A model generated the notes under the pieces. It saw only the letters and a list, made by a program, of their open reading frames with translations. It was not told the DNA's origin and made no database searches. Of a stretch of 64,000 nucleotides of DNA, positions 3,555-57,159 are shown one piece after another (the stretch's first letter is position 1; every line of letters starts with the position of its first letter). The stretch spans positions 6,821-70,820 of the forward strand of contig JAPYRK010000006.1 in assembly GCA_029941115.1 (NCBI GenBank), written 5' to 3'. This DNA is from Dehalococcoidia bacterium (GTDB taxonomy: Bacteria; Chloroflexota; Dehalococcoidia; UBA2979). Position numbers and translations under genes: made by a program.

Positions 3555-3586
3555 GTATTTGTATATTTAGTCTGAATAGTGTTTGG

Positions 3587-5622: not shown

Positions 5623-5828
5623 ATTTTTCAGTCCTCTCCCATACTTTATTTTCACTATCTTCATCAAGTGGTCAAATCTTTTTTCACCACATACCTACCA
5701 GATCTGAATTAGTATCGGAAAACCCGACTTTATTTCTCATTCTGGTTTTTTGCTTTTGAGTCGCGTCGCCCCCGCCGTCCATCTTTAGACGACGAATAAG
5801 TTGAAACCCACCGCAAGCAGAAATCATG

Positions 5829-5855
5829 TTAGCACTCTCCTGCCGAGAGTGCTAG
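5829..5855. promoter_or_regulatory. CIRCE element (HrcA operator) upstream of groES-groEL
   Basis: TTAGCACTC-N9-GAGTGCTAG is a near-perfect match to the CIRCE consensus TTAGCACTC-N9-GAGTGCTAA. It sits about 200 nt upstream of the groES start. Confidence 0.85.
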
Positions 5856-5976
5856 GTCCCTATCGAAACTATTTTATTGGCATAGATAGTGGTGCGTTTA
5901 TGACAGATGTGCACGAACTCGTTTACGATGGCATCAGGCACGCTAGTGCGCTAATTAAGATTTAGGGAGTCAAACA

Positions 5977-6738: not shown

Positions 6739-6789
6739 CAGGCCCAACGCTGTGCGCAAAGTTCCTGCTTAATTAGATTGGTGTTGTAG

Positions 6790-7698
6790 ATGAAATTTAG
6801 TATTTGGCCTCATTTAAGTGGAAAATTCACTGACCTTATCGATATTTGTTTGAAAGCCGAAGCGTCCGGCTGGGACGGAATTTGGATAGCGGATCATTTC
6901 ATGCCAAATACCGGAGATCAGTCCACTACGGTCGGCCCGACGTCTGAGGCGTGGACTACGCTTTCAGCAATTGCAGCTTTAGTACCAAGGGTTCGCATTG
7001 GAACTTTGGTGACTGGAAACACATATCGTAGCCCGGCGATCCTAGCCAAAATGGCGGCCGAGGTGGACGGGATAAGTAATGGTCGCCTCGTACTTGGGTT
7101 GGGGGCAGGTTGGCAGGAGAACGAACATTTGGCATATGGTATTGAGTTTTCGTCAGTAGGGGGCAGGCTTGCCCGACTCAGAGAGAGCATCCAAATAATC
7201 AGGTCACTTCTTGAAGAGGAATTCACAAGTTTTTCAGGTAAGTATTATGAAATCACGGATGCGCCACTCAGCCCGAAGCCTGTTCAGAGTCATCTTCCGA
7301 TTCTTGTTGGTGGGGGTGGCGAGAAGGTTACATTAAAAATTACTGCAATGTTTGCTGATGAGTGGAATGTTTGGGGCAGTCCAGAAGTATTGAGGCAGAA
7401 AGGGCGTATTCTAGACCAACACTGTGAAGCAATCGATCGAGATCCACGAGAGATTAGGCGGTCAACTCAGGCGTTATTTTTTCTTTCAAAAGATGCGGCG
7501 GCTGTTGAGCGAGCTAAGGAAAATGCTACAGATCGGTTAATAGCAGGTAGCCCAGATGAAATAGTCGAGGTTATTGCGCAGTATGCTGAAGCTGGGATCG
7601 ATGAACTGATTGTACCCAACTTCAATATGGGTAATACGAACGAAGTCAATGAAACTTATGATTCGTGGATGCACGATGTCATACGGCAGTTAGGCTAA
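6790..7698 (+). CDS. LLM-class (luciferase-like) flavin/F420-dependent oxidoreductase
   Basis: 302 aa with a TIM-barrel LLM pattern (IWIADH ... GRLVLGLGAGW ... HLPILVGGGG). Confidence 0.8.
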   Translation: MKFSIWPHLSGKFTDLIDICLKAEASGWDGIWIADHFMPNTGDQSTTVGPTSEAWTTLSAIAALVPRVRIGTLVTGNTYRSPAILAKMAAEVDGISNGRLVLGLGAGWQENEHLAYGIEFSSVGGRLARLRESIQIIRSLLEEEFTSFSGKYYEITDAPLSPKPVQSHLPILVGGGGEKVTLKITAMFADEWNVWGSPEVLRQKGRILDQHCEAIDRDPREIRRSTQALFFLSKDAAAVERAKENATDRLIAGSPDEIVEVIAQYAEAGIDELIVPNFNMGNTNEVNETYDSWMHDVIRQLG

Positions 7699-7728
7699 CC
7701 AAAAATTTTATAGGAGCGTCTAGCAGTC

Positions 7729-8298
7729 TTATATACGCTCTTCGAGCAGAGACCAGACCATATTTTCAGTTTGGGTTGTTGCGTGTCCTTCTCTAAGAAT
7801 TCTTACTAATAATCTACTGTCGTATCCAAATTCGGAAAGATATTGCTGTATCTCTTCTACGCGATCGTTTGCTTGGAGAATTACCGCGAGCACTAGCTCC
7901 CATTCAGGCGGAGTACAAGGAACGCGATGTCCGTCTAGGGATCCATGATTCAAGGCGTTCCAGAGAGAAGGAATCTGCACAGGAGAAAATCTTTCCTCAG
8001 CACCTTGAAATACTGGATCACCAATTACGAAGATAGATATCTCTTCTCGGGTTAGATGGAGCCGCGTGCCAGATACCACTGCCGATGATATTTGGTCAGG
8101 TTTTTCTCCGAGCATTTTGCAGATAGTTTTAACTATTTTATCTGTAGTCATAAATTCGATAGTGTCGTAGTGAGTGTTCAGGCCTTGCAACTGGAGCGAG
8201 CCGCCACCGATCAAGGCCCAATCAGTGGGTTCCGGTGTGGCTTCTTCCAATACGCTAACAAGAGTTCTGAGTACTGTTTTATAAGTTTGTGTCAGCAT
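7729..8298 (-). CDS. hypothetical protein, possibly nucleotidyltransferase-fold (Lnu/MJ0435-like)
   Basis: W-A-L-I-GGGS ... D-x-I-E-F resembles the GG...DxD core of NTase-fold proteins but is degenerate. Confidence 0.3.
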   Translation of the reverse strand: MLTQTYKTVLRTLVSVLEEATPEPTDWALIGGGSLQLQGLNTHYDTIEFMTTDKIVKTICKMLGEKPDQISSAVVSGTRLHLTREEISIFVIGDPVFQGAEERFSPVQIPSLWNALNHGSLDGHRVPCTPPEWELVLAVILQANDRVEEIQQYLSEFGYDSRLLVRILREGHATTQTENMVWSLLEERI

Positions 8299-8404
8299 GA
8301 TTTTCCTTATTAGTCGACCCAGTTAAGAGCCTTGAATGATATCTCTAAATAGTCTCAATGGCGAGAATGAATCGCTTAATGAAGTTTTTAGGTATTATCA
8401 TTGT

Positions 8405-8479
8405 GGGCCTGTAGCTCAGTGGTAGAGCAATCGGCTTTTAACCGATTGGCCGTGGGTTCGATCCCCACCGGGCCCACCA
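8405..8479 (+). tRNA. tRNA-Lys (anticodon UUU), CCA encoded
   Basis: The cloverleaf was derived by hand: acceptor GGGCCUG/CGGGCCC, D-arm GCUC..GAGC, anticodon stem AUCGG/CCGAU with loop CUUUUAA, T-arm GUGGG-UUCGAUC-CCCAC, then the discriminator A and CCA. Confidence 0.9.
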
Positions 8480-8654
8480 ATCTTTCACTTTTCGTTCCTT
8501 ATTTAAAATATTGGAAGTAGTCGTGGATCTTCCGCGGTTACTTTTTGTTTTAAAACGGTTGAAGAGCAGGCCTAGCGATCGGACCAGTTGCTTTAGCGTC
8601 AGGTGAACGTTTTTTGATCGCGCTATATTAGTTGGGAATATGGAGGTTTAAAAT

Positions 8655-9802: not shown

Positions 9803-10570
9803 ATGTTAGTTTTGCTATCGCCAGCTAAGGGTCAGAATTTCGAACCAACTGAGGCCGAAGTTCATGTGTCAGAACCCCGATTACTTTCAAAAAGTAACGA
9901 ATTGATCGAGATACTTCGCTTATACAGCCCGGACGAGCTTATGGCATTGATGAATGTCAGTGAGAAAATTGGAAATTTGACGGCGGAGCGTTTTGCCTCG
10001 TTCAGTACACCATTTAATGAGTCAAACGCGAAACCAGCTGCATTTGCATTTTCCGGTGATGTATATAAGGGTTTAGCGATTGATGATTTTACAGAAAATG
10101 ACCTTCAATTTGCTCAAGATCACGTACGGATTCTTTCGGGGTTGTATGGTGTGTTGAGACCTCTCGATCTTATACAACCCTACCGTTTAGAAATGGGAAC
10201 TCGTCTGGATACCGCGGCTGGCTCAGATTTATATCAATATTGGGGGTCTTCTATTTCAGATTGTCTGATGGCAGATCTAGAGGAACATGAAGACGATTTG
10301 GTTATTAACTTAGCATCTAATGAATATTTCAAGGCGGTGAATGGCGCAGACATCAGGGCTAATGTTAATACCCCAGTGTTCAAAGACTGGAAAAACGGTA
10401 GATACAAGATTATTTCGTTTTTTGCGAAAAATGCTCGAGGCGCTATGGCTAGGTGGATCACTAAGCAGCGGGCGGAGAAAGCCACAGATTTGTTTTATTT
10501 TGGAGAAGACGGTTACGAATATAGCGAAGAACTTTCCGCCCTAAATAGTCCTGTTTTTCTTCGTGGCTAG
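9803..10570 (+). CDS. yaaA: peroxide stress protein YaaA (UPF0246/DUF328)
   Basis: The MLVLLSPAKGQNF start and FAQDHVRILSGLYGVLRPLDLIQPYRLEMGTRLD are collinear with E. coli YaaA. Confidence 0.92.
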   Translation: MLVLLSPAKGQNFEPTEAEVHVSEPRLLSKSNELIEILRLYSPDELMALMNVSEKIGNLTAERFASFSTPFNESNAKPAAFAFSGDVYKGLAIDDFTENDLQFAQDHVRILSGLYGVLRPLDLIQPYRLEMGTRLDTAAGSDLYQYWGSSISDCLMADLEEHEDDLVINLASNEYFKAVNGADIRANVNTPVFKDWKNGRYKIISFFAKNARGAMARWITKQRAEKATDLFYFGEDGYEYSEELSALNSPVFLRG

Positions 10571-10852
10571 TTTCCGCAAATCTAGCGAATTGGATTTATT
10601 AATTTTAGCAAGTTGATGAAATGTACAGATTTATTGGCACTAATGTATAAGCGCCTATCCATTTGATATTGACAGGTCACTATAAAAAATTATACAGTTC
10701 AGTACCCAGTAGTTTTTACGCTTAAACGCTTGGGCGAGTGATCATTTAATAGCCAAATGTTTGAGTACGAGGTTGGCTTAGTTATTTGCCCAAGCCAAAG
10801 AGTAACCGGGGCATAATAATTATTGTGCCGATTAGTAACGAAGTAGGAGTAC

Positions 10853-13800
10853 TTGATGAAGATCAATCGTCGTTTTACAAAATCAGGTCAAAGTCCCTAC
10901 GATGGCGTTTCTTTTATAAAACGGGATTCTCGTATAACTGAATTTGATGGGACTCTGGTGTTTGAAGCAAAGGATATATCAATACCAGAATCCTTTTCTC
11001 AAGTCGCCACAGATGTAATGGCTCAGAAGTATTTTAGAAGAGCTGGGGTTCCAAGTGAGACAACAGCTGTCGCCGAAGAGGGAATCCCGGAATGGGCTCA
11101 GCGACGTGAACCTGCCGAGGGCAGTACTTTTGGTGGTGAGACGGATGCTCGACAATCATTTGATCGTTTGGGTTTGACGTGGGCTTATTGGGGATTAAAG
11201 AACAATTATTTCGACAGCGAAGAGGATGCTTTGGCATTTTCGGATGAAGTACGCCACATGATGGCTCGTCAAATGGTGGCACCAAATTCCCCTCAATGGT
11301 TTAACACCGGCCTGCACTGGGCATATGGAATCGAAGGCCCGTCTCAAGGTCACTGGTTTGTTGATCCTGAGTCAGCAGAGATGCGACCATCGACATCGGC
11401 ATATGAACGACCTCAACCTCATGCCTGTTTTATTCAGTCGGTAGCAGATGATCTCGTTAATAAAGGTGGAATTATGGACTTATGGACTCGTGAGGCACGA
11501 GTCTTTAAGTATGGTTCGGGCACAGGCTCAAATTTTTCGTCGATCAGAGGTGATAATGAGGGATTATCTGGTGGTGGACAGTCTTCAGGGTTGATGTCAT
11601 TCCTGAAGATTGGAGACAGATCTGCTGGAGCTATTAAATCAGGTGGAACAACACGCCGGGCGGCGAAGATGGTCATTTTGGATGTAGATCACCCAGATAT
11701 TGAGGAATTTATTGAATGGAAAGTGAAAGAAGAGCAAAAGGTAGCAGCTCTTGTCACTGGCTCAAAAATCACGCACCGACATTTAACTGATATTTTCAGA
11801 CTCGCCTCAGATGAAGAGGCTGGCGGTATCGATGTTACTGAGAATCAAGCTCTTCGAAAGGCTATCAGATCAGCGCGAGCTGATAGCGTGGTCGAATCAG
11901 TCATATCGAGAGTTCTTGATTTTGTTCACCAGGGTTATGTGGATATCGATTTTGATGAATTCGATTTGGATTGGCAAGGCGAAGCATATCAAACTGTTTC
12001 AGGACAAAACTCTAATAATTCGGTCCGCGTGACGGCTGATTTTTTGGACGCGGTGCGAAAGGATGATTCTTGGGATTTGATTCGAAGAACAGATGGTGAA
12101 GTTAGTAAAACTATTCGGGCAAGAGATCTCTGGTCAAAAGTCGCGCTAGCAGCATGGCAGAGCGCTGATCCTGGAGTTCAGTACGATTCGACAATTAACG
12201 AGTGGCACACTACACCTGCGGGTGGACGTATAAACGGATCAAATCCATGCTCCGAATATATGTTCCTTGATGATACGGCGTGTAATTTAGCATCACTTAA
12301 TTTGGCATCCTTTTATGATGCTGACACGAAGGCCTTTGATATAGCTGCCTATGAACATGGAATTCGATTATGGACAATTGTTCTGGAAATTTCGGTACTC
12401 ATGGCTCAATTTCCGTCGGAAGCGATTGCTCGGCGTTCGTATGACTATCGTACCTTAGGTCTTGGATATGCCAATCTTGGAGCTTTATTAATGCAGAAGG
12501 GCGTTGCGTATGATTCGCCAGAGGCCTTGGGCTTTGCGGGAACATTAACGGCTATTATGACTGGCTGCTCATACGCGACATCAGCTGAGATGGCTGGTGA
12601 GCTAGGTGCTTTTCCTCGGTATGAGGAGAATGACGGCGCAATGTTACGAGTCATGCGTAATCATCGAAGGGCTGCATACTCCTCGCCAGCTGATGATTAT
12701 GAAGAGTTAAGCGTACTTCCAGTAGCCATAAATGAAGCCCACGCGGATTCACAACTTCTTGATGCATCAATAAAATGGTGGGATTACGCAGTCGAATTAG
12801 GTGAAAGGCACGGTTACAGGAATGCTCAAACGACCCTTATAGCTCCAACTGGAACGATAGGTTTGTTGATGGACTGTGATACGACTGGAGTTGAGCCAGA
12901 CTTCGCACTAATTAAATTCAAAAAGTTAGCTGGTGGAGGATTCTTTAGAATTATTAATGAATCTGTGCCGGCTGCTCTAAAGGAATTGGGCTACGCAGAG
13001 ACCGAAGTCGATGATATTGTAAAGTACGCGATTGGATCGCATTCGATTAATAACTCCCCCCATGTGAATAGGCAGTCACTTAGTGAATTGGGTTTGTCCG
13101 AATTGGATTTAGGTAAAGTAGAAGAGGCTTTGGTTTGGGCCCCTCATGTTTCAGTCGCGGTGAATACGCTAGTAACTGAAAGTGAATTAATGAATGCTTT
13201 AGGAATTTCATCAGATGATTCGAGTGTTCCGGGTTTTGATCTGCTAACTGCGCTGGGCTTTGATGCTGTAGAGATTACACGAGCGAATGATTATATAAAC
13301 GGCCGAATGACAGTTGAAGGTGCTCCTCATTTACGTGATGATCATTTGGCCGTCTTTGATTGTGCAAATAAGTGTGGCGATTACGGAACAAGATACATTG
13401 AAGCAATGGCACATGTCAGAATGTTGGCAGCGGCACAACCGTTTTTGTCAGGAGCTATTTCAAAAACTATTAATATGCCAAGAGAGGCCACGGTTGGAGA
13501 GGTAACCGAGGTTTATGATGAGGCCGCGCGATTAGGTGTAAAAGCACTGGCACTATATCGTGATGGATCCAAGTTATCGCAACCATTGTCATCTGATAAG
13601 AGCATGTTGTTGTCGGGTGGCGCAGAATTTGAGGATACCGAGGAATTCACACAAGCGATTGTGGAATCGGCTGAGCGATTAATTGGACTGCGTCGTGGTC
13701 ATCGAGAAGATTTACCTAGTCGGAGGCCTGGTGGGTATACCCAAAAAGCCATGGTAGGTGGACACACTATTTATTTGCGAACGGGTGAATATCCCGAGAC

Positions 13801-14407
13801 CGGCGCTGATGGCCGGCCACGTTTAGGTGAAATATTTATTGATACGGCGAAGGATGGTGCAGCTTTTCGTAGTTTGATGAATTGTTTTGCAACCGCTGTT
13901 TCTGTGGGTTTGCAATATGGAGTTCCTCTTGAGACATTTGTTGATAAGTTTACGTTTAGAGCATTCGAACCAGCGGGCGTGGTACAAGGACATGATCGAA
14001 TTAAGAATGCCCGCTCGATTATTGACTATATATTTCGAGATCTAGGTGTGACATATCTTGGTATGGAGAATTTAGCGCATGTTCCTGAGGTTGAGGCAGA
14101 GGAACAAAGCACTTCGATTCACGCGGAGCCGGAAATGCTTCCGTCTGATTTAATTGAGGAACCAGATAATATTTCGGTCTTGGAATTTCCTGCCAGAGTA
14201 CCTGTGGTGGAGGAATCAGTAACTCCAGTAGTCAGCGGTGGAAATAATTTCCCCTCGACGGACTCAACACTCTTAGCACAACAGACAGAGGCAAAGCGAT
14301 ATGGGTTTGAAGGTGATGCTTGTGCAATGTGTGGTGAATTTAAGATGGTAAGATCTGGCACCTGCTTGAAGTGTATGGTTTGCGGAGAGACTACAGGGTG
14401 TAGCTAG
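10853..14407 (+). CDS. nrdJ: ribonucleotide reductase class II, adenosylcobalamin-dependent (long form with C-terminal Cys-rich Zn ribbon)
   Basis: 1184 aa with an RNR ten-stranded barrel region ([20 protein letters not shown] active-site stretch) and a C-terminal CAMCGE...[13 protein letters not shown] motif. Confidence 0.93.
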
Positions 14408-19189: not shown

Positions 19190-20122
19190 TTAATAGCCCT
19201 TGAAGTCTGGAGCTCGCCGCTCAACAAATGAGCGAAAACCTTCTTTCGCATCACTCGTTTTTAGTAATCCCGCCTGAGCATTCCATTCATGTATCAGCCA
19301 TTGTTCCGCAGATCCTGATGTATCTAATGACGAATGCAAGAGGCGTCGAATCTCTGCTGCCGCGAGTGGTGGACCAGCCGCAACTCTCCGCGCATAGTCG
19401 ATGGCCTCTGATAGGAGGTCCTCGTCTTCAACAACCCTGTTTACTAGGCCAAGTTCAAGCAATTTATCATATGGCATTACATCACTGTGATACATAACTT
19501 CGAAAGCCCGAGCTGATCCGACTACTCGAGGAAGAAACCAGAGCACACCATAATCTGAGACGATTCCGCGTTTGAAAAAAATTGGTCCCATTCGCGCTGA
19601 TTTCCCCGCGATCCGAACGTCACACGCCATTGCCATGCCAAATCCAGCGCCTGCTGTCGCTCCGTTGATAGCACCGATTATCGGGACATCAGATTTAATG
19701 AAACTTAACGCTGTTGAGACTGATCTGTTGTGATGTGGCAGGCGTTCGTGTCGTGGAAGGCTGGGAACAGCGTCACTTGACTCTTGGCTTGAATCTGCCG
19801 GTGTACGATCAGGTGTGATTTCGGCTCCTGCACAGAAGGCACGACCACTCCCCGTTAGTACCATAGCTCTGACTGAATCTTCTTTTGAAGCGAACGCTAA
19901 TGCGGCTCCCAGACCTTGTCCAAGGGTTGCATTGAGCGAGTTCATTTGCTCAGGGCGGTTGAATGTCGTAACGAGCACTCCTTCATCATCGAGTTCCGCA
20001 ATAACGTCACCTTTTGAGATATCTTGGATACTGTCTATTATTTTGCTCATGAGCTCCCTCGTAAAGTGTCTTATAGTTGACCGGTCTTTATGTTGTGAGA
20101 GTGTAGCCTGTCTGGGCGGCAT
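19190..20122 (-). CDS. enoyl-CoA hydratase/isomerase (crotonase) family protein with low-complexity insertion
   Basis: AFCAGAEI ... GAINGATAGAGFGMAMACDVRIAG oxyanion-hole segments. An insert of about 45 aa rich in Ser/Pro lies between them. Confidence 0.8.
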   Translation of the reverse strand: MPPRQATLSQHKDRSTIRHFTRELMSKIIDSIQDISKGDVIAELDDEGVLVTTFNRPEQMNSLNATLGQGLGAALAFASKEDSVRAMVLTGSGRAFCAGAEITPDRTPADSSQESSDAVPSLPRHERLPHHNRSVSTALSFIKSDVPIIGAINGATAGAGFGMAMACDVRIAGKSARMGPIFFKRGIVSDYGVLWFLPRVVGSARAFEVMYHSDVMPYDKLLELGLVNRVVEDEDLLSEAIDYARRVAAGPPLAAAEIRRLLHSSLDTSGSAEQWLIHEWNAQAGLLKTSDAKEGFRSFVERRAPDFKGY

Positions 20123-20200
20123 CCGTGAGTGCCTGATGTTCTAAAGAATGGGAATAGTTGCTTTTTCTTATTTTTAAGGCCATGCTAGTCAATTATTGGA

Positions 20201-23200
20201 GTGATTATGAAACTTGGTAAATTACTTGTGGCTAATCGAGGTGAAATAGCAGTTCGAATTATTCGAGCTGCTTCTGAGCTGGATATAGAGACTTGCTCGA
20301 TATATTCTGAGGCAGACATTAATTCAATCCATTGGCGAAGAGCCGATGAGGCATTCTTACTTCAGGGCTCGGGTGCTCAGCCGTATTTAGACATAGAGCA
20401 AATCGTACAGGTGGCTACTGATGCTGGATGTGCCGCGGTCCATCCGGGTTATGGCTTTCTTAGCGAAAATCCTGAGTTTGCTATCAAGTGTGAATCCGCT
20501 GGGATAAAGTTTGTCGGTCCAGAATCTTCCTCACTAAACGTTTTTGGTGACAAAGTATTGGCGAGACAAGTCGCGATGCAGCACGGAATACCGGTTGTAC
20601 CTGGACTTGACCATCCGGTAACGGTCACTGAGGCAATGGAATTTCTGGGATCTTTGGAAGAGGGTCAGTCAGCGATTCTCAAGGCTGTGCATGGCGGAGG
20701 TGGGCGTGGAGTTCGTGTACTCGAAAAGGATAGTGATGTTGGACAGGCGTACCGAGAGGCACAGACTGAGGCTGAATCGTCCTTTGGGAGTGCAGATCTC
20801 TACATCGAAAGATACCTACCCAATGTTCGCCATATTGAAGTGCAAATAGCCGGTGACTCAACTGGCGCGATCTCACATTTTTGGGAGCGCGATTGTTCCA
20901 TACAGAGGCGTCACCAGAAAATTATTGAGATAGCTCCTGCCCCGTTTTTGGATGAAGCCGTTAGGGATGCATTACTGGCGGCGGCGGTAACAATCGGAGA
21001 GGCCGCAAATTACGAAAATCTAGGCACCGTGGAGTTTTTGGTATCGGCAAGCCAGACAGAATCGAGCGAATTCTTTTTCATTGAGGTAAATCCAAGACTG
21101 CAGGTAGAACACACAGTAACTGAAGAAGTCACAGGTATTGATTTGGTACAAACACAATTGCGAATTGCTTCAGGTGAGAGTCTTGCATCACTTGGTCTTT
21201 TACAGGGATCGATTGCGCCAGCCCAAGGTTACGCGATTCAGGCAAGAGTAAATATGGAGAAAATCAAGGAAGACGCCACCGTGGTTCCGTCAACGGGAAC
21301 TCTATCAGTGTTCGCTCCGCCATCAGGTCTTGGTGTACGGACGGACACTTTTGGTTACAGCGGTTACCAGACTAGTACAAGTTTCGATTCACTTCTGGCA
21401 AAAGTAATTGGGTATTCCAGTTCTCGTGAATTTGCTCCTGCGGTCGCACGGGTTGAAAATGCGCTGGCCGAGTTTGATGTCAAAGGTGTGGATACCAATA
21501 TATCTTTCTTGAGAGCCATTCTTGGTCATCAATCGTTTCGGAATGGAGAAGTGTACACACGTTTTGTTGATTCAGAGGCCGGTGGACTCAACCAGCTTGC
21601 CAAAGAAATAGGCGACAGTGTTTTATTGGGCTTTGCCGAACCGAACGAACAGGCTGGGGCGACGATCGATTCTAACGACCCTTTGGCGGTACTAGATTAT
21701 GGAATACAAGCGATTCGGAGTGCGGAGACACAGTCTTCTCCAGAGCTAGGTGGACAATCCGATGCCCCTGGATCAGTAAGGTCACCTCTGCAGGGTACTG
21801 TCGTATCTATTGAAGTCTCGGTTGGCGAGAAAGTACAAGCCGGACAACTACTAGCGGTAATGGAATCAATGAAAATGCAGCATGAGATTAAAGCTCATTT
21901 AAGTGGTTCGGTCAGTGTTATTAGTGTTAGTTCAGGCGACACTCTTTGGGAGAATCACACGCTGATGATCATCGAAGCACATGAAGTCTCTGGGTCTGTT
22001 ATTGAAGGTGACAATTCAGTCGATTTAGAGTTCATTCGTCCTGATCTCGAGGAAATTTTGGTACGCCGTGCCGCGACCCTGGATGAGAATCGAGAAGAGG
22101 CGGTGTCCAAGCGCCATTCTCGGAATCTGAGGACAGTTCAGGAGAATGTAGAGGATTTGTTCGATACAGGAACTTTTTTGGAGTACGGACCTCTAGTTCT
22201 AGCAAACCAGTTCTCGCGTCGTAGCTTGAATGAATTAATTGAAAAGACACCAAGAGACGGGATGATTACCGGTATGGGGAGTGTGAACGGAGATCTGTTT
22301 TCTGGTCCTGAAAGTATGGTCGCAACAATTGCATATGATTATATGGTTTTGGCCGGTACGCAAGGGAACAGAAATCATCAAAAAACCGATCGAATGATTG
22401 AAGTAGCACGAAACTCACAACTACCCTTGGTATTGTTTGCAGAAGGCGGTGGCGGTCGGCCCGGAGACGATGGGCTTCATGCAGCTGGAGGTAGCTCAAC
22501 GTTTGCTTCTTTTTCAACCCTAAGTGGCCTGGTCCCTATGGTCGGAATTACGGCAGGCCGTTGTTTTGCCGGCAATGCTTCATTACTTGCTTGTTGTGAC
22601 GTAATTATCGCCACGGAAGGATCAAATATTGGGATGGGAGGACCGGCAATGATCGAAGGTGGTGGCCTAGGTATTTTTGCTCCTGAAGATATTGGTCCGA
22701 TGGAAATACAGATACCCAACGGCGTCGTAGATATATCGGTTAAAGACGAAGCAGAAGCCGTTCAAGTTACTAAGAAATACCTGTCTTACTTCCAGGGGTC
22801 AGTGGATACATGGGAGGCTCCTGATCAGCGTGAAATGAGGCAGATTGTCCCTGAAAATAGATTGCGAGTCTATAACGTTCGAGACGTGATTAATACGCTG
22901 GCTGACGTTGACTCCATACTTGAGATTCGGCCTGAGTTTGGAATTGGAATTGTCACTGTATTGGTCCGTGTGGAGGGCAGGAGTTTGGGTGTTATTGCTA
23001 ACAATCCTGGTCATTTGGGCGGTGCTATTGACTCAGATGGTGCTGACAAAGCCGCTCGGTTTATGCAGCTTTGTGACGCGTTCGATCTGCCGTTGCTCAC
23101 TCTAGTTGACACCCCTGGCATCATGGTTGGCCCTGAGGTGGAAAAAACCGCTTTAGTGCGTCACGCTAATCGGCTATTTCTGCATGGCGCCAATATTGAA

Positions 23201-44879: not shown

Positions 44880-45330
44880 CGCGGTGCTTCCGCTCGCTTT
44901 CGCAAGCTGACATCCTTGTTAGTCTCTGTCGGGGACAGGTGTTGCCATCTTTGCATCCTGTTGTTGATGGAGTCCTCCCTCACAAAATATCTGCCGCAGA
45001 AAATACTTTATTTAATCAGGTCAGCTCGTACATTCTTGCTTAAAAGTTGCATAAGCACAGCAACCTCAATCAAATCGGTCAAGAAAAAGTACCAATGAAG
45101 CCTATACCTTCCGCCGAGACTGCTGCGAAGATCTCTAATACTAATAGTAAGGAATCAAGATTTCGTGCCCTGATCATTCTTTTGCATATTTCGTAACCTG
45201 AATGAAACTATTCCAGAGGTTCGTTCCAATTCTTCTTGGATTAACCAGCCGGTCTGCATCGACTTTAGATACTCGGCTCTAAGTCGTGCTGCTTTCTCTG
45301 GCGACAATTTCTTTTTCGGGTCGTTCGTAG

Positions 45331-46370: not shown

Positions 46371-46934
46371 TCAGTGAAAAGATCTTAGGAACGAGTCGAT
46401 TTCCTTACTGGATCGCAGCCGAACAATCTCTAGTTCGGAATTGTTAGTAACGATGGCTAACATTCGTTTTCTTTTGTTGGCGTGCTGAGTAACAGCCCAA
46501 AACAAAAGTGAATCATTGCTCCATATTTTCAGGTGTTTGAAGAAGTTTTCGTAATTCGTCCCCCATAAGAGCTCATGTGTCCGCCAACGCTTCCATGATC
46601 TTCTAACTAGTCTGCCGAGTATGGTGGCTATGGGTAGGTCCAACCATATGATTAGGTTGATGTCTTTCCACACTGTAACTCGTATGTGATCTTCGTACGA
46701 ACCAGCGATTACCCACGAGTTGGACTTTGTAGCCTCAATAATCTTTGCTTGAAACAGTCTTGGGTTATGTTCATTGAGGCCAAACCAGTTAGGTAAGAAA
46801 TTGATTTCGTCCAGTTCTACGAAGGGGATATCTGTTTTACTGGCAACTTTGCGCCCGACTGTGCTTTTCCCAGAACAAGTATTTCCCACCACATAAATTC
46901 TTCGTCCGGTGATCTTCAATTCTTTCTCGATCAT
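46371..46934 (-). CDS. P-loop NTPase, adenylate-kinase-like/topology modulation protein FlaR-like
   Basis: Walker A VVGNTCSGKST, 187 aa, and a kinase-like lid region. Confidence 0.5.
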   Translation of the reverse strand: MIEKELKITGRRIYVVGNTCSGKSTVGRKVASKTDIPFVELDEINFLPNWFGLNEHNPRLFQAKIIEATKSNSWVIAGSYEDHIRVTVWKDINLIIWLDLPIATILGRLVRRSWKRWRTHELLWGTNYENFFKHLKIWSNDSLLFWAVTQHANKRKRMLAIVTNNSELEIVRLRSSKEIDSFLRSFH

Positions 46935-46983
46935 CTCTTAAATACTAGGGATGCAGGTCAACCGCTGCGACTCACGTCGGTTT

Positions 46984-47041
46984 TGTTGAGAGACTCGTCG
47001 GTTATAAAATCTCTGGGAGAAACGATTACACCCTCAGCATG
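46984..47041 (+). promoter_or_regulatory. copy A of a duplicated ~58 bp promoter/leader module (TGTTGrGrGAsTC-N9-ATAAAATCTCTGGGAGAAA-N16-ATG)
   Basis: Identical at 30 of 38 aligned positions (47004..47041), including a 19 bp identical core, to the copy at 49133..49190, with the same spacing to an ATG. It contains a -10-like TAAAAT and the palindrome TCTCTGGGAGA. Confidence 0.5.
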
Positions 47042-47111
47042 TCTGACAAATTAAACGAGTGGCTAAATTTTTATGCTTTCCTCGTGCGGCTTTGTTGCCG
47101 CGTTGATAGTA

Positions 47112-48818
47112 TTACGCTCGGGCAGGATGAAACTCTCCTGCCAAAATAGTCCCATGAACCCTTATATCTTTAATGGTTTTGGGGTCTACTTCGTAAGGGT
47201 CCTCGTCGAGCACTGTAAAATCAGCATGCTTGCCGACTTCAATGCTACCTAAATGGTCATCTTGATTAAGTACGTGAGCGGCATCTACCGTGATTGCACG
47301 TAGCGCTTGATCCAGAGAGATACGCTCACCAGGAGCAACTATCGTCTTATTGTCAGTAGTTAGTCGATTGACAGCGATCCATACAGCAGTAAGAGGATGC
47401 ATAGGGGCCACAACTAAGTTGTAATCTGAATGGAGAGCAAAGGTCACGCCGGCTTTGACGAGTGATCCCAATCTGGCTGTGGCTTCCGCACGGTCAGGTC
47501 CGAAGCCTTTTTCTGCCTGAATTTTCGATCGATAGTGAACGAAATAGGGGTTAACGCTTGCAAGTCCCCCCAATGCTGACAATCGTCGTGCTTGGGCGGG
47601 AGTACTGATGCAGTAGTGTTCGATGGTAAATCGATGATCGAAGCGAGGTGCGGCATTCTGCAGCGCTTTGAGAGTGTTGAGTGTCATGTCGATCGTTTCG
47701 TCCCCGTTAGCATGGGAATGAATCTGAATGCCTTCCTTCCAGAAGGGGAGCATCCGGTCAAACATATCTTCCCATGGAACTTCTCCAGTGAGGCCCTCTT
47801 CACCATCCAAATAGCCGGGGTAATTCAGGCGTAGAGTCATTGACGGATAAGACCCATCATTTACGAATTTCACGCCATGGACTGCCAGCTGGTCGGATGC
47901 TTGAGAAGCCATATGTTGATAGAAATCAAGAAAATTCTCACCGTAGCGTCGCCGGAGTGATCCTTCAAAAGGTACAAGGAACATACGTAGGGGTAGTGAA
48001 CCATTAGTAATTGCCTTCGAGTGGTCATCCCATTCCTCCTCGAACGAATGAGTGCCGTAGAGCATATCAGCAGTGGTCGTGACGCCACTATTCACTGCTA
48101 CTTGACCCTGTAACTTCAGCGAGTCTGCTCCAAATCCAGCACCGTAGACCTGATTGCGAACTGCCCGGGCCGCGACTGCAGTCGCTTCGGTTTCTACGAA
48201 CCACCCATTTAATTTGCCGGTTGGATCACGTCCTAAGCCATGAATTTGGCTATTTTCATCGACACCTATTTTCTTAATCATCGGTGTATTGGTATAAATA
48301 ATGTGTGGCGCATAGGCAACGACCCAAATAGGAGTTTCGGTTGAAATGGCATCGAGTATGTCACGGTTTAGGTGGCCGCCTTGCATACCTGGGTCATACC
48401 CCCAAGCAACTAAGGGCGACTTTGTGGTTCCGTCACTGGAATCGGTCGCTTTCGCTACCAGCTCCTTCAACCGAGATATGACGGATTCTTGATCGGGTAA
48501 TCCTGAAAGTGGCTGTCCAAGGTGATCCGTGGAATCGATAGGACCGACATAGTTTAAACTCATGTATGTACCTGAAAGCCTGAGATGGGTATGGGGATCA
48601 ATGAAACCAGGTAAGATGATTCGACCTAAGAACCTGTCATCGATTTCATAGGGCGTTCGGCGCAGCCATGGCTGCATTGACTCAAGGGTGCCGACAGATA
48701 CTATTCTTCCATTGCTAACTGCCACGGCATCGGCTTGTGGCCGACCAGGGTCCATGGTGTGAATTCGTGTGGCGGTAAATACAGTAAGTTTATCCATCAG
48801 TCGTTCGGTTTTCTCCAC
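47112..48818 (-). CDS. amidohydrolase family (Amidohydro_3, metal-dependent TIM-barrel hydrolase)
   Basis: 568 aa with an N-terminal HxH region (IDPHTHL), HSH and a C-terminal HSD metal ligand pattern. Confidence 0.85.
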   Translation of the reverse strand: MEKTERLMDKLTVFTATRIHTMDPGRPQADAVAVSNGRIVSVGTLESMQPWLRRTPYEIDDRFLGRIILPGFIDPHTHLRLSGTYMSLNYVGPIDSTDHLGQPLSGLPDQESVISRLKELVAKATDSSDGTTKSPLVAWGYDPGMQGGHLNRDILDAISTETPIWVVAYAPHIIYTNTPMIKKIGVDENSQIHGLGRDPTGKLNGWFVETEATAVAARAVRNQVYGAGFGADSLKLQGQVAVNSGVTTTADMLYGTHSFEEEWDDHSKAITNGSLPLRMFLVPFEGSLRRRYGENFLDFYQHMASQASDQLAVHGVKFVNDGSYPSMTLRLNYPGYLDGEEGLTGEVPWEDMFDRMLPFWKEGIQIHSHANGDETIDMTLNTLKALQNAAPRFDHRFTIEHYCISTPAQARRLSALGGLASVNPYFVHYRSKIQAEKGFGPDRAEATARLGSLVKAGVTFALHSDYNLVVAPMHPLTAVWIAVNRLTTDNKTIVAPGERISLDQALRAITVDAAHVLNQDDHLGSIEVGKHADFTVLDEDPYEVDPKTIKDIRVHGTILAGEFHPARA

Positions 48819-49132
48819 TCATAAGTAACGCCAGCAAGTTGCTCTCTCTTTAAAGAAATGTGAGTGGCTTTAAACTTTATACCTTATCGCCCCCTTCTTT
48901 TTATAAGGTTCAGCTAGTCCCAACTCGTCAGTATTTACAAGTGTAAACGCTAATTAAGCACTCAACTAATTACAGGTGAATTCAAGGGCATTGCTACCTG
49001 ATTGCTGCACGCTAGGCCAGCAGGTCAAAGAACGGTCACCCTTTCCTTTAACCGATGGGGGCCACCTAACTATATTTCACCGGAAAACAAACAGAGGGAG
49101 GGAGGTCAGGCGTTCGCCCCCCTAGCTCCGTC

Positions 49133-49190
49133 TGTTGGGGGAGTCCATTTACATAAAATCTCTGGGAGAAATGGTTACACTCCCTGCATG
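49133..49190 (+). promoter_or_regulatory. copy B of the duplicated promoter/leader module, upstream of a 40-codon ORF and the lyase gene
   Basis: See copy A. The ATG at 49188 opens MSKNLDKDELIKRIERLRSNNPVSKIDEEEINARKHAFWG, which overlaps the RBS and start of the downstream gene. Confidence 0.5.
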
Positions 49191-49281
49191 AGTAAGAACC
49201 TAGACAAAGACGAACTAATAAAACGCATTGAGCGATTACGCTCTAATAATCCAGTGTCAAAGATTGATGAGGAGGAAATAA

Positions 49282-50640
49282 ATGCAAGAAAACACGCCTT
49301 TTGGGGATAGCGGTAGTACGTCAGTCAGTGAAATATTTAGTGAGTCCAATCTGTTTCAATCCTACTTGGATGTTGAGGCGGCGCTTGCCCGAGCCCAGGC
49401 GAGTCAAGGAATAATTCCAGTCGAGGCCGCTATTGTGATATCCGAAAAAGCAAAACTTGAATTGTTGAGTCTCCAAAATATATATGACGGATTGAATAAA
49501 ACAGGACACCCCTTAGTCCCGTTGATTTGGGAGTTAGATAGGATCTGTGGCGAAGAGGCAGGTGGATATATACACTGGGGCGCCACGACTCAAAACATCA
49601 CACAAACGGGAAAGATACTGCTGGTTAAGCAATGCCACGATAGTTTCTTAAAGGATCTCGGAGCTCTACTGCATGTGCTCGGAGAACTGGCGGAAAAGAC
49701 TAAGGATTATGCCCTGCCCGGAAGAACTCACGGCCAACATGCTGTTCCGGCAACTTTCGGCTATAAAGTGGCCGTATGGATTGACGAATTAATGCGGCAT
49801 GTCGATCGCTTGCAAGGAAGCGAGGAACGGGTCTTTGTGGCAATGCTTGGCGGTGGGGCTGGAACGATGGCCTCTGTCGGTCTTGATGGTCTCGAAACTC
49901 AAAGGCTAATTGGCGAGGATTTAGGATTAGGTTCAATGACTATGCCTTCCAGAGTGATAGGCGATCATCTGACGGAATACATCACTATTCTCGCCATGCT
50001 TGCTGCGACAGCTAGCAAGATGTCACGTGAAATTTATACCATGATGAAACAGGAATTCGGTGAAGTTGAAGAGCCCGTGCCTCTGGGTGCTGTCGGTTCA
50101 TCAACTATGCCCCAGAAACGTAATCCTCGTTTATGTCAGGATGTTGTCGCTTGGGCTGCAGAAATCCGGACATTTGTGCCGATGTCCTTAGAAGCAATGC
50201 AAACTGAGCATGAGGCTGATAAAACCACCAGCATGATGATTAATTCTGCCATTGATAGGACGTGTGTACTTATGGGACAAATTACTACTGCGCTGATTGA
50301 GATATTTTCCGATCTAAAGATTTTCCCTGACCGGATGAGGCAGAATCTTGAACTTAGTGGAGGACTGATACTTTCTGAGAGAATCATGCTGGAATTAGGT
50401 CAGGAGATGGGGCGGCAAAAAGCTCACGATGTGGTTTATGATGCTGCACAAAGATCAGTTAATGAGGGAAGGCCGTTTACAGAGACGCTACAAGAGGAGC
50501 CTGAAGTGACTAAGCGACTGTCTAAAGCCGATATATTGGATCTGCTCGATCCGGAGCAATATACCGGTCTATGTTCATATTTTGCACAGGAATTCTCAAG
50601 AAAGGCCCAGAAAAAGAGTCTGGAGTTGATTGGTGACTAA
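49282..50640 (+). CDS. fumarate-lyase superfamily enzyme (3-carboxy-cis,cis-muconate cycloisomerase / adenylosuccinate lyase-like)
   Basis: GSSTMPQKRNP signature and HEAD catalytic region; 452 aa. A strong GGAGG RBS precedes the start. Confidence 0.85.
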   Translation: MQENTPFGDSGSTSVSEIFSESNLFQSYLDVEAALARAQASQGIIPVEAAIVISEKAKLELLSLQNIYDGLNKTGHPLVPLIWELDRICGEEAGGYIHWGATTQNITQTGKILLVKQCHDSFLKDLGALLHVLGELAEKTKDYALPGRTHGQHAVPATFGYKVAVWIDELMRHVDRLQGSEERVFVAMLGGGAGTMASVGLDGLETQRLIGEDLGLGSMTMPSRVIGDHLTEYITILAMLAATASKMSREIYTMMKQEFGEVEEPVPLGAVGSSTMPQKRNPRLCQDVVAWAAEIRTFVPMSLEAMQTEHEADKTTSMMINSAIDRTCVLMGQITTALIEIFSDLKIFPDRMRQNLELSGGLILSERIMLELGQEMGRQKAHDVVYDAAQRSVNEGRPFTETLQEEPEVTKRLSKADILDLLDPEQYTGLCSYFAQEFSRKAQKKSLELIGD

Positions 50641-50693
50641 TTAGCCGCGAGGAAATCGAGTTCATGAAGAGACTCGAAAGATGGGAACCCTCT

Positions 50694-51467
50694 TTAAACT
50701 TTATAGCCCCCATCAACACTTATAACCTGGCCTGTAATTCCTGCCGACTCAGGCGCGGCGAGCAACGCTGCCATGGGACCAAGCTCCTCTGGTTCCAAGA
50801 CTCTGTTCTGAAGATTTTCTGCCGATCTCCATGCATGAGCTTCAGCTGCATCTGTGCCGCGAGCTCGCCCCATTGCGTCCCAATCAACGAGTGCGGTATT
50901 TGTCCAACCTGGACAAAGACAATTCACGGTTATTCCGTCTGCGGCCACCTGTCCGGCTAAGGCTTTTGTGAATCCGATAAGACCGTGTTTTGCGCTCGTG
51001 TATGCGAGCGCCCCCCCGCTTCGTTTTGCGTAGCCCGATCCAATGGTGAGGATTCGACCAAAACTGTTTTCTTTCATATGTGGAAGAGCTTCACGAGTTG
51101 TCCAGTATGCTGACGTGAGATTCAGGGCTAAGTTGGCTTCGAAAGTGTCATCATCATGTGTGTATGGATTTTGGTCACCTGGTACACCACCACCGACATT
51201 GTTGACCAGGATGTCTATCTGACCGAAATGACTTACAGCCTCGATGACAGGTTTTTTTGATTCAAGTCTGTTGAGGGCGTCGGCCTCGACCGCCAGGCCG
51301 ACGCTGCCGATTTCGTTAATTTCTTCGACTACAGCGTCAAGTTGCGAGCGCGTACGAGCGGAAACCACTACTTTGGCCCCTTCGCGAGCAAGCTCAAGGG
51401 CGATTGCTCTCCCGATTCCTCTTCCACCACCCGTTACCACAGCCACACGATTTTCTAATCGTCCCAT
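50694..51467 (-). CDS. SDR family oxidoreductase
   Basis: VTGGGRGIGRAIALELA and NNVG; 257 aa. Confidence 0.85.
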   Translation of the reverse strand: MGRLENRVAVVTGGGRGIGRAIALELAREGAKVVVSARTRSQLDAVVEEINEIGSVGLAVEADALNRLESKKPVIEAVSHFGQIDILVNNVGGGVPGDQNPYTHDDDTFEANLALNLTSAYWTTREALPHMKENSFGRILTIGSGYAKRSGGALAYTSAKHGLIGFTKALAGQVAADGITVNCLCPGWTNTALVDWDAMGRARGTDAAEAHAWRSAENLQNRVLEPEELGPMAALLAAPESAGITGQVISVDGGYKV

Positions 51468-56806: not shown

Positions 56807-57159
56807 GCCTAGTTAACCTGTGGGTATTGTTTTGAATGTGCCGTGGGTGACAGACTCCAGACAGTGAATTAGTGCGGGGCTGTCATTCATACAAGGTATC
56901 CAGGTAAAGTTAGCGTCTCCCGCATCCTCCCAAGTTAGTTCATAGGCTTCCTTGGTTTTCTTTGGTCAGAAATGAAGAATGAAAGCTCGTAGAATGAACT
57001 ATTGAAGGAGTTTTGGAAGGTCAATCACCAACTTATCTGATAGAAATTCATCGCGTAGACTTTTACGTCTTGGGTATCCAGCGACTTGGGAGATCCGAGA
57101 TTTATTAGGAATATATGTTTAGACTGTGTTGCCAAAAAATTATCCTAAACGGCGAATAT

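What the first reader, a model, noticed from the sequence alone, without database searches (positions are those of the whole stretch)
46984..49190. Duplicated ~58 bp promoter/leader module in direct orientation flanking the amidohydrolase gene
The two copies are 46984..47041 and 49133..49190. They share 19 identical bases (ATAAAATCTCTGGGAGAAA), then TTACAC and GCATG at identical spacing. They also share a similar upstream TGTTGrGrGAsTC block 15 nt before, and an ATG exactly 35 nt after the core. Each ATG opens a short ORF starting MS(D/K)(K/N)L(N/D). The element has a -10-like TAAAAT and an 11 bp palindrome, TCTC-TGG-GAGA, that could be an operator. Copy B sits upstream of the lyase gene (49282). 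Copy A is orphaned: its small ORF runs antisense into the 3' end of the amidohydrolase gene (47112..48818, minus). This suggests the amidohydrolase gene was inserted or rearranged between two copies of one regulatory module.
Basis: seen in the sequence. Interest (0 to 1): 0.55.

Follow-up and report, generated by a model that had tools for sequence, protein, structure and literature searches.

The report
Reused two-way promoter in island modules
The two repeats are real copies of a roughly 100-base intergenic element, most likely a two-way promoter, that comes with gene modules inserted at the end of a dehydrogenase gene in uncultured marine Dehalococcoidia bacteria; it is an instructive but not unprecedented case of promoter reuse on mobile DNA.

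Summary
Copies A (46939-47041) and B (49087-49190) belong to a 95-115 nt element family. The window also holds a decayed third copy, C (44926-45010). More copies lie in related marine Dehalococcoidia contigs.

The conserved block runs from one start codon to another. On the right, TACACT, 6 nt, then ATG. On the left (opposite strand), TA[CG][GT]AT, 6-7 nt, then ATG. Neither side has a Shine-Dalgarno site. I read this as a compact bidirectional promoter for leaderless or short-leader mRNAs, inferred from anatomy only.

The gene-insertion interpretation is reversed. The amidohydrolase was not inserted between two copies. The mobile piece is a 1.8-kb module (48898-50694) made of an att arm, copy B and the lyase gene. 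It is bounded by att repeats derived from the 3' end of the SDR (short-chain dehydrogenase) gene. It is absent from strains whose SDR is 98% identical, and one assembly shows it duplicated through a hybrid att junction. Integrase-bearing relatives occupy the same site.

Copy A's right half is decaying. Its left half keeps a -10-like box 7 nt before the ATG of the kinase-like gene.

This is a new member of known kinds: mobile promoters and site-specific island accretion.

The parts
49087..49190 (+). Copy B of the element, full length. Core 49153-49171; palindrome 49159-49169; -10-like TACACT 49176-49181; 6-nt spacer; fixed ATG 49188-49190.
   Evidence: HMM hit at 49088-49182, E 2.7e-23. Sequence read directly. 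The orthologue in L062 (9805-9903) keeps TACACT plus ATG.
46939..47041 (+). Copy A of the element. Core 47004-47022; right -10 degraded to TACACC (47027-47032); fixed ATG 47039-47041. The left -10-like box ATACTA at 46942-46947 reads TAGTAT on the minus strand.
   Evidence: HMM hit at 46940-47034, E 1.5e-20. Left-side anatomy; orthologue comparison.
44926..45010 (+). Copy C, a degenerate third copy. It keeps the upstream blocks GACAGGTGTTGCCA and TGTTGTTGATGGAGTCC, and has a variant palindrome TCTG-CCG-CAGA.
   Evidence: HMM hit at 44930-45001, E 1.2e-4.
48860..49061 (+). Distal att core (48878-48897; on the minus strand GAAGGGGGCGATAAGGTATA, the displaced original 3' end of the SDR gene) plus a conserved arm of about 190 nt shared by island modules.
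   Evidence: Arm HMM hit, E 2.3e-57. The same arm occurs in L048 (twice), L080 and L062, and in part in L086, L076 and L050. att match.
50695..50714 (-). Proximal att core, which is the rebuilt 3' end of the SDR gene (GATGGGGGCTATAAAGTTTA, encoding ...DGGYKV*).
   Evidence: Empty-site comparison. The same 20-mer flanks integrase-bearing islands in L048 and L080.
48898..50694 (+). The lyase module: arm, copy B, a 40-aa ORF and the Lyase_1/ADSL_C gene. It is a non-autonomous integrated unit with no integrase. The att-to-att period is 1817 nt.
   Evidence: Absent from L086-L095. Tandem copy with a hybrid att junction in L007.
49188..49310 (+). A 40-aa ORF opened by the fixed ATG of copy B. It overlaps the lyase start (49282) by 29 nt. 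It may be a translated leaderless small ORF or simply the lyase leader.
   Evidence: The L062 orthologue has the same length with 6 aa changes. No Pfam hit.
49282..50640 (+). Lyase_1/ADSL_C family gene with a strong Shine-Dalgarno site (GAGGAGG); the cargo of the module.
   Evidence: Pfam E 6.7e-40 and 2.8e-20. NCBI name 'adenylosuccinate lyase family protein [Dehalococcoidia bacterium]'.
47112..48818 (-). Amidohydro_3 gene lying between copies A and B. The ATG at 48797 is the start that most gene callers chose.
   Evidence: Pfam E 2e-58. Retained next to the SDR gene in strains that lack the lyase module.
46371..46934 (-). P-loop kinase-like gene. Its ATG (46932-46934) lies 7 nt from the left -10-like box of copy A, making it a candidate leaderless gene driven by copy A.
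50694..51467 (-). SDR (short-chain dehydrogenase) gene whose 3' end is the integration site (attB).
   Evidence: Pfam E 2e-49. Integrase-bearing islands abut the orthologous gene in L080 and L048.

Best explanation
Copies A and B are two of at least three copies in this window of a 95-115 bp intergenic element. The element is part of the backbone of a family of site-specific integrative islands in marine Dehalococcoidia (SAR202-like) bacteria.

The element most likely works as a compact, back-to-back (bidirectional) promoter. On the right, a -10 box TACACT sits 6 nt before an ATG. On the left (opposite strand), a -10 box TA[CG][GT]AT sits 6-7 nt before another ATG. Transcripts would therefore start at or near the start codon (leaderless), or, in a 'long form', about 20 nt upstream of a start that has a Shine-Dalgarno site. 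The roughly 75 bp between the two boxes, including AAATCTCTGGGAGAAATGG, is conserved and presumably binds a regulator.

The islands integrate into the 3' end of an SDR gene and rebuild that end. This leaves a displaced att copy plus a ~190-nt arm at the far side of the insertion.

In this window, a 1.8-kb integrase-less module (att and arm, copy B, 40-aa ORF, lyase) sits at that site, and copy B is its cargo promoter. Copy A lies in an older part of the same variable region. Its right half is decaying, while its left half probably drives the kinase-like and rhodanese genes on the minus strand.

Shown: the family, its anatomy, the att repeats, the empty site and the hybrid junction. Inferred: promoter activity, leaderless starts and regulator binding.
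For: Family:
- A metagenome scan found 6 further loci sharing more than the bases forced by the search pattern.
- HMM searches found 18 copies carrying the right half in 9 non-redundant contigs.
- All 3 window copies lie within 4.3 kb of the variable region, and none elsewhere in the 64 kb.

Promoter anatomy:
- T1, A2 and T6 of TACACT are at least 90% conserved across 18 copies.
- In 9 of the copies found, an ATG follows at exactly 6 nt, preceded by a pyrimidine, with no Shine-Dalgarno site. It opens non-homologous ORFs of 36-100 aa, including an uncalled 88-aa membrane ORF in L080 and a 100-aa ORF in L048.
- Other copies continue into a leader with a Shine-Dalgarno site (L050, L062 at 5453 and 11435, and the MDWEQ-family long form).
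- 11 of about 13 full copies show ATCCCC-TA[CG][GT]AT-N6-7-ATG on the other strand. The genes there are a DUF2569-like gene, a GNAT acetyltransferase and, in the window, the kinase-like gene.
- Copies truncated on the left keep exactly the -33 to +1 part.
- Indels of 1-2 nt exclude coding.
- TANNNT at 6-7 nt without a Shine-Dalgarno site occurs at 13 of 121 long ORFs, against 2-9 at control spacings.
- Leaderless genes with a -10 box about 12 nt upstream of the start codon are documented in bacteria, including about 4.7% of genes in some Chloroflexi (PMC3160421).

Selection pattern at copy A:
- The left TANNNT-N7-ATG is kept in the window (TAGTAT) and in L086 (TACTCT), despite surrounding changes.
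- The right side is broken differently in each strain.

Island context:
- att repeats are present.
- The empty site in strains L086-L095 shows the SDR codon swap expected for integration with rebuilding of the gene end.
- L007 has a duplication with an 1817-nt period and a hybrid att junction.
- Tyrosine integrase, HTH_17 and AAA_25 islands sit at the same SDR end in L048 and L080.
- A conserved arm lies next to the distal att.
Against: - No transcript 5' ends are available, so promoter activity and leaderless translation are inferred from anatomy alone.
- No recognisable -35 hexamer accompanies either -10 box, and the simple sigma-70 scan found nothing here.
- TACACT is a weak -10 box by E. 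coli standards.
- The enrichment of leaderless-type starts in these contigs is modest. Published estimates for Chloroflexi are low (PMC3160421).
- In two of the three window copies, the genes to the right of the element are convergent with it, so the right promoter has no obvious client there.
- The very high conservation of the 20 bp upstream of TACACT is unusual for a plain promoter and is not explained.
- The metagenome search pattern forced 19 core positions, which inflates the apparent invariance of those hits.
Confidence: 0.6

Rival explanations
1. The element is a one-directional sigma-70 promoter with -10 TAAAAT and -35 TGTTGR. TCTC-TGG-GAGA is an operator and about 22 nt forms a leader. 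The amidohydrolase gene was inserted between two copies of one regulatory module.
For: TAAAAT is a good -10 hexamer in copies A and B, in one L052 copy and in several L062 copies (TATAAAAT). It sits 16 nt from (C/T)TGTTG. Copy C carries a compensated palindrome, TCTG-CCG-CAGA.
Against: The TAAAAT position varies across the family (CAAAAT, CGAAAT, GCAAAT, CGCAAT), and left-truncated copies lack the TGTTG block. A start near GGGAG would leave a 22-nt leader with no Shine-Dalgarno site before the ATG. Several copies break the palindrome without compensation. Comparative data show that the lyase module with copy B is the inserted unit, not the amidohydrolase.
Confidence: 0.12
2. The element is mainly a protein-binding module of the recombination machinery, for example accessory sites for the island integrase or excisionase. 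Its position next to start codons would then be secondary.
For: The element occurs only in or near island modules. Its GGTCAGGCGTTGCCACC block resembles a block in the att arm, C(A/G)GGTCA(A/G)AG..TGC. One copy (L062 at 11421) is fused directly to an att core. In L049 the core lies 10 nt after a tRNA-Glu gene. In L053 the core abuts an integrase fragment, although that Pfam hit is weak (E 0.005, 17.1 bits against a cut-off of 27.1).
Against: The distance from the att core varies from 0 to about 900 nt. The crossover in L007 and the boundaries of the empty site lie in the att core, not in the element. This model does not explain why conservation stops exactly at an ATG on both sides.
Confidence: 0.13
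3. The element is a selfish miniature repeat (MITE/REP/Correia-like) that spreads by itself, and any promoter activity is incidental.
For: There are multiple copies per contig and truncated forms, and metagenome contigs tend to break near copies. Because of the CAT...ATG ends, the two ends look like loose inverted repeats.
Against: No real terminal inverted repeats and no target-site duplications were seen. No copies lie outside the variable island region in the 64-kb window or in 88 kb of unrelated contigs. All window and L062 copies share one orientation relative to the SDR gene. Copies are delimited by start codons.
Confidence: 0.08
4. The element is a structured RNA, either a 5' UTR riboregulator or a small RNA.
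For: Small hairpins are possible (TCTC/GAGA, AGTCCC/GGGACT). Spacing to the ATG is fixed.
Against: There is no Rfam hit, even at E up to 10. RNAalifold finds no consensus structure on either strand (-4.8 and -2.5 kcal/mol). Only one compensated pair was seen among 4 sequences. If the -10 boxes point outward, the conserved centre is not transcribed.
Confidence: 0.05

Closest known systems
Putative mobile promoters ('promoter propagation'; Matus-Garcia et al. 2012, PMC3488235)
   Same: Highly similar upstream regions sit in front of non-homologous genes within and between related genomes, which suggests promoters are reused separately from their genes.
   Different: Here the reused unit is bidirectional and ends at a start codon on both sides (leaderless anatomy). 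It is also tied to one family of integrative island modules rather than scattered across the genome.
ssrA-specific genomic islands of Dehalococcoides (McMurdie et al. 2011, PMC3146451)
   Same: Same bacterial class. Site-specific islands integrate at the 3' end of one conserved gene. A direct repeat of that end marks the island boundary. A module of integration genes lies next to the integration site, with variable cargo.
   Different: The target here is the 3' end of a protein-coding SDR gene, not the tmRNA gene. The integrase is a different tyrosine recombinase with few relatives. I know of no report of a conserved promoter element for those islands.
CIMEs (cis-mobilizable elements) and tandem accretion of integrative elements, as in Streptococcus thermophilus ICESt3/CIME
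   Same: The module is flanked by att sites but lacks its own recombinase. It sits at a site used by integrase-bearing relatives, so it could be mobilised in trans or in cis.
   Different: Mobilisation was not demonstrated here. The only hint is the hybrid att junction in one metagenome assembly.
Tycheposons of Prochlorococcus (bioRxiv 10.1101/2020.12.28.424599)
   Same: They are integrative elements behind genome variability in an abundant marine bacterium. From my own knowledge of the paper, they are small, tyrosine-recombinase-based, build cargo islands and leave att remnants.
   Different: The lineage, integrase and target differ. Only the abstract was seen here, so the detailed comparison rests on my recollection.
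Integron gene cassettes
   Same: Small units of one or two genes are bounded by recombination sites and arranged in a row, with a possible circular junction.
   Different: There is no attC-like imperfect palindrome and no R'/R'' core sites. Cassettes here carry their own promoter, genes lie on both strands, and the recombinase is a phage-type integrase that targets a gene's 3' end.

Membership tests
Bacterial promoter for leaderless mRNA | TANNNT -10 box ending 6-7 nt upstream of the start codon | tested here: met
   Copy B: TACACT at 49176-49181, 6 nt, then ATG at 49188. Copy A, left side: TAGTAT, 7 nt, then ATG at 46934. T1, A2 and T6 are at least 90% conserved in 18 copies. Copy A's right side fails the test (TACACC).
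Bacterial promoter for leaderless mRNA | No Shine-Dalgarno sequence before the start codon | tested here: met
   CTCCCTGC before the ATG at 49188 and TTAAGAG before the ATG at 46934. The same holds in the other short-form copies.
Bacterial promoter for leaderless mRNA | Transcript 5' end mapped at the start codon | not testable with these tools
   No transcriptome data are available.
Putative mobile promoter (PMC3488235) | Homologous upstream region in front of non-homologous genes | tested here: met
   Genes on the right include the lyase leader ORF, a 100-aa protein, an 88-aa membrane protein, a lipoprotein-like peptide, a RibD_C protein and the MDWEQ family. Genes on the left include a DUF2569-like gene, a GNAT acetyltransferase and the kinase-like gene.
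Site-specific integrated element without its own recombinase (CIME-like) | Flanking direct att repeats derived from the target | tested here: met
   Repeats at 48878-48897 and 50695-50714. The distal copy retains the displaced SDR end.
Site-specific integrated element without its own recombinase (CIME-like) | Empty site in close relatives | tested here: met
   L086-L095: SDR 98% identical, with the amidohydrolase 80 nt after the SDR stop codon.
Site-specific integrated element without its own recombinase (CIME-like) | Integrase-bearing relatives use the same attB | tested here: met
   L080 has an integrase island between att copies at 49-68 and 7347-7366, next to SDR, radical SAM and luciferase-like genes. 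L048 has an island at 2066-8562.
Site-specific integrated element without its own recombinase (CIME-like) | Excision or circular intermediate | tested here: inconclusive
   The hybrid att junction in L007 fits a circle, a true tandem duplication or an assembly effect equally well.
Integron cassette (attC) | Imperfect palindrome with R''/R' core sites (RYYYAAC ... GTTRRRY) | tested here: not met
   GTTACAC does not fit GTTRRRY. There is no matching R'' and no long hairpin.
Known RNA families (Rfam 15) | Covariance-model match | tested here: not met
   No hit at gathering threshold or at E up to 10 in 46700-49500.
MITE/REP-type repeat | Terminal inverted repeats and target-site duplication, with dispersed copies | tested here: not met
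   None of these features was seen, and copies are confined to the variable island region.

The most novel reading that the evidence does not exclude
Integrase-less, att-bounded modules such as arm + copy B + lyase may be true gene cassettes of a non-integron system in abundant marine SAR202-type bacteria. In this reading they are excised as circles and re-inserted at the SDR gene's 3' end by an integrase supplied in trans. Each cassette would carry a standard bidirectional leaderless promoter, making it expressible on arrival. The promoter's conserved centre would be shared with the att arm and bound by the same island-encoded protein, linking cargo expression to recombination.
Probability: 0.15. 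Interest if true: 0.7.

Novelty: new member of a known kind. Interest (0 to 1): 0.42.

Why it matters
SAR202-type Dehalococcoidia are abundant in the deep ocean and are uncultured, and how they exchange and express accessory metabolic genes is poorly known. This locus gives a concrete, testable picture with four parts. There is a defined attB (the SDR gene's 3' end), a small family of tyrosine integrases that use it, and integrase-less cargo modules that differ between near-identical strains. There is also a standard element of about 100 bp that could switch on whatever gene lands next to it in either direction, apparently without a ribosome-binding site.

For annotation, the element flags small leaderless ORFs that gene callers missed. 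For the finding itself, the practical result is a corrected reading of which gene moved and which strand copy A serves.

Tried and rejected
- Exact 18-mer scan of 185,579 reference genomes: 36 single hits in unrelated taxa with random flanks. All are chance hits, and the source species is not represented.
- Viral contigs: no match to the core and no relative of the island integrase.
- Rfam at two thresholds: nothing.
- Consensus RNA folding of 4 and of 7 copies on both strands: no convincing structure.
- The simple sigma-70 and terminator scan found nothing at the element.
- A first, narrow HMM built from near-identical cores missed the diverged copies. It was rebuilt from full copies.
- The closest amidohydrolase homologues (77-78% identity) lie in other genomic contexts (an amidohydrolase-CobW pair) without the element. 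They were no use as orthologous loci.
- I looked for strains in which recombination between A and B had removed the amidohydrolase, using the kinase-like protein as anchor. None were found.
- Sigma-54, ECF-sigma, T7-like and archaeal TATA readings of the core were considered by eye. They were dropped because spacing or key bases do not fit, and because the organism is bacterial (a GroEL-like ORF ending in MGG repeats, and NCBI names).
- The coding hypothesis was rejected because copies differ by 1- and 2-nt indels.
- The attC hypothesis was rejected (see the membership test).
- A first, crude count of TANNNT before any candidate start was uninformative. A stricter version gave a modest signal.
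Full report
**1. Observation**

The 19-mer ATAAAATCTCTGGGAGAAA occurs exactly twice in the 64-kb window, at 47004-47022 and 49153-49171, both on the + strand. With up to three mismatches allowed there are still only these two matches, against 0.02 expected by chance. TTACAC and GCATG follow at the same spacing. Each ATG (47039 and 49188) opens a short ORF of 36 or 40 aa. Gap-free similarity runs from about 46983 to 47057.

**2. The repeat belongs to a larger family**

- The exact 18-mer in one genome per species gave 36 single hits with unrelated flanks. These are chance hits.
- Scanning metagenome contigs with TCTCTGGGAGAAANNNTTACAC returned copy A itself and six other loci. All six share bases the pattern did not force, giving AATCTCTGGGAGAAATGGTTACACTC, and they have different surroundings.
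- Aligning these loci showed the unit is 95-115 nt. Its consensus is tAGGGgATGgaGGTCAGGCGTTGCCACCCCTAG..TGTTGGGGACTGCTCTTATACAAAATCTCTGGGAGAAATGGTTACACTC.
- An HMM built from seven full copies scores copy A at E 1.5e-20 (46940-47034) and copy B at E 2.7e-23 (49088-49182). It also finds a third, decayed copy C at 44930-45001 (E 1.2e-4) and further copies in L048, L051, L052, L053, L062, L080 and L086.
- NCBI names for the window's proteins place the organism in Dehalococcoidia, as a marine metagenome-assembled genome.

**3. What the element is not**

- It does not code for protein: copies differ by 1- and 2-nt indels.
- It matches no Rfam family, even at E up to 10.
- It has no consensus RNA fold on either strand.
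- It lacks attC features, terminal inverted repeats and target-site duplications.

**4. Anatomy**

Conservation stops at a start codon on both sides.

*Right side.*
- Across 18 copies the hexamer TAcaCT keeps T1, A2 and T6 in at least 90% of copies.
- In nine copies an ATG follows after exactly 6 nt. It is preceded by a pyrimidine and has no Shine-Dalgarno sequence. The ORFs it opens are not homologous to one another and range from 36 to 100 aa. One is an 88-aa two-helix membrane ORF in L080 that gene callers missed.
- Other copies continue into a short leader with a Shine-Dalgarno site. This 'long form' precedes a paralogous 'MDWEQ' membrane-protein family and a RibD_C gene.

*Left side (opposite strand).*
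- Eleven of about thirteen full copies read ATCCCC-TA[CG][GT]AT-N6-7-ATG.
- The genes served there are a DUF2569-like gene, a GNAT acetyltransferase and, in the window, the kinase-like gene: TAGTAT, TTAAGAG, then ATG at 46934.

*Interpretation.* A TANNNT box about 12 nt upstream of the start codon is the recognised signature of bacterial leaderless genes. It has been reported, at low frequency, in Chloroflexi (PMC3160421). In the contigs collected here, 13 of 121 long ORFs have such a box at 6-7 nt and no Shine-Dalgarno site, against 2-9 at control spacings. I therefore read the element as a compact bidirectional promoter for leaderless or short-leader mRNAs. This is an inference from anatomy. 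No 5' ends were available and no -35 hexamer is evident.

The palindrome is kept mainly as a sequence. One compensated variant exists in copy C (TCTG-CCG-CAGA), and several copies break it without compensation.

**5. Genomic context**

- A 20-nt sequence at the 3' end of the SDR gene (minus strand 50695-50714, GATGGGGGCTATAAAGTTTA) recurs in degenerate form at 48878-48897, upstream of the amidohydrolase.
- The same sequence flanks islands in other contigs:
  - L048 2066-8562 carries a tyrosine integrase, an HTH_17 excisionase-like gene and an AAA_25 gene.
  - L080 has an integrase 88% identical to that of L048. Its island lies between att copies at 49-68 and 7347-7366, directly beside the orthologous SDR, radical SAM and luciferase-like genes.
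- Next to each distal att core lies a conserved arm of about 190 nt. In the window it spans 48860-49061 (E 2.3e-57).
- The usual order is: att core and arm, then an optional DUF2569-like gene pointing left, then the element, then cargo pointing right, then (in autonomous islands) the integration genes, then the proximal att at the SDR end.

**6. Which piece moved**

- Strains whose SDR is 98% identical (L086-L095) have the amidohydrolase 80 nt after the SDR stop codon. They have no lyase and no copy B.
- Their junction, GCTTTAAACTCTATACCTTATAGCCCCCATCAACAC, equals the window's distal att flank joined to the SDR end.
- The SDR's last codons are AAG GTA TAG in those strains and AAA GTT TAA in the window. 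The window's distal att still carries GATAAGGTATAA. This is the pattern expected when an element integrates into a gene's 3' end and supplies a replacement end.
- In one assembly (L007) the module is present twice, with a period of 1817 nt. That equals the att-to-att distance. The join is a hybrid att, CTTTATAGCCCCC|TTCTTTTTATAAGG. This could be a true tandem copy, read-through of an excised circle, or an assembly effect.
- A related strain (L062, lyase at least 90% identical) has five element copies in the same orientation. It also has extra modules that the window lacks: a 48-aa ORF plus an enoyl-CoA hydratase gene, and a 417-aa gene flanked by att repeats.
- The inserted unit is therefore the lyase module carrying copy B, not the amidohydrolase.

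**7. Copy A**

- On the + strand it faces the 3' end of the amidohydrolase gene. Its right half is broken in a different way in each strain:
  - window: TACACC;
  - L086: ATG changed to AAG;
  - L062: the palindrome is lost.
- ORF A is not conserved across these strains.
- The left half keeps TANNNT-N7-ATG before the kinase-like gene in both the window (TAGTAT) and L086 (TACTCT). It is missing in L062, which has no kinase-like gene.
- This fits a bidirectional promoter in which only the side in use is maintained.
- The kinase-like gene's start is uncertain: some gene callers chose a TTG five codons downstream.

**8. Comparison with known systems**

The element fits the description of putative mobile promoters (PMC3488235). 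The island behaviour parallels the ssrA-specific islands of Dehalococcoides (PMC3146451) and cis-mobilizable elements. It broadly resembles tycheposons (bioRxiv 10.1101/2020.12.28.424599). It is not an integron cassette system. I found no paper in the library describing SAR202 islands of this kind, but the library is incomplete.

**9. Verdict**

The promoter idea is broadly right but needs a different -10 box, two directions and probably leaderless starts. The insertion scenario is reversed. This is a new member of known kinds and of moderate interest. The more novel reading, a promoter-equipped cassette system mobilised in trans, is not excluded but rests on one ambiguous junction.

Noticed in passing
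L007:1717-5373 (same as L070; assembly GCA_029935995.1): The lyase module is present twice in tandem with a period of 1817 nt. The join is a hybrid att, TAAACTTTATAGCCCCCTTC. It could be a real duplication, the trace of an excised circle, or an assembly effect.
   Followed up: partly
window 51530 (also L062:14122 and L080:8182): The B12-binding radical SAM gene starts at a GTG preceded by TATACT plus 6 nt, with no Shine-Dalgarno site. This is conserved in three strains, making it another candidate leaderless gene outside the element.
   Followed up: partly
window 56918-56927 versus L062:19517-20226: L062 carries extra sequence overlapping a called ferrochelatase gene (19402-20445) that the window lacks. 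The indel is flanked by a short direct repeat, CCCGCATCC.
   Followed up: no
L054-L061 (contigs holding the closest amidohydrolase homologues): The nearest homologues of the window's amidohydrolase (77-78% identity) are followed by a CobW-family GTPase gene and sit in different gene neighbourhoods. Source names for other homologues span several phyla. In the window the gene stands alone, which suggests horizontal acquisition.
   Followed up: partly
L048:9786-10967 and 13129-14229; L049:2100-2200; L051:1130-1153: A paralogous family of small membrane proteins (N-terminus MDWEQ.TIIAQIATG) repeatedly follows the 'long form' of the element. It includes a copy with an in-frame stop codon in L049. 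One member has a weak DUF6082 hit.
   Followed up: partly
L049:1985-2096: The element core begins 10 nt after the 3' end of a tRNA-Glu gene and lacks the element's left part. This may be a junction of a related island that targets a tRNA.
   Followed up: no
L076:3337-3482 and 10001-11179: An integrase 57% identical to that of L048 lies in an island next to the ffh gene (SRP54). The island carries the same att-arm sequence but no clear element copy. The family therefore uses more than one attachment site.
   Followed up: no
window 49230-49243: A hairpin, GAGCG-ATTA-CGCTC, lies inside the 40-aa ORF and lyase leader. In L062 the two changes fall in the loop (TTTG), and they are also synonymous in the small ORF. 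RNA structure and coding constraint cannot be separated here.
   Followed up: no
window 3594-3677: A 9-nt tandem repeat (CCGCCCATA) on the + strand lies near the 3' end of the minus-strand ORF 3587-5269. Read on the minus strand it would encode the methionine/glycine-rich tail typical of GroEL. Judged by eye; ordinary.
   Followed up: no
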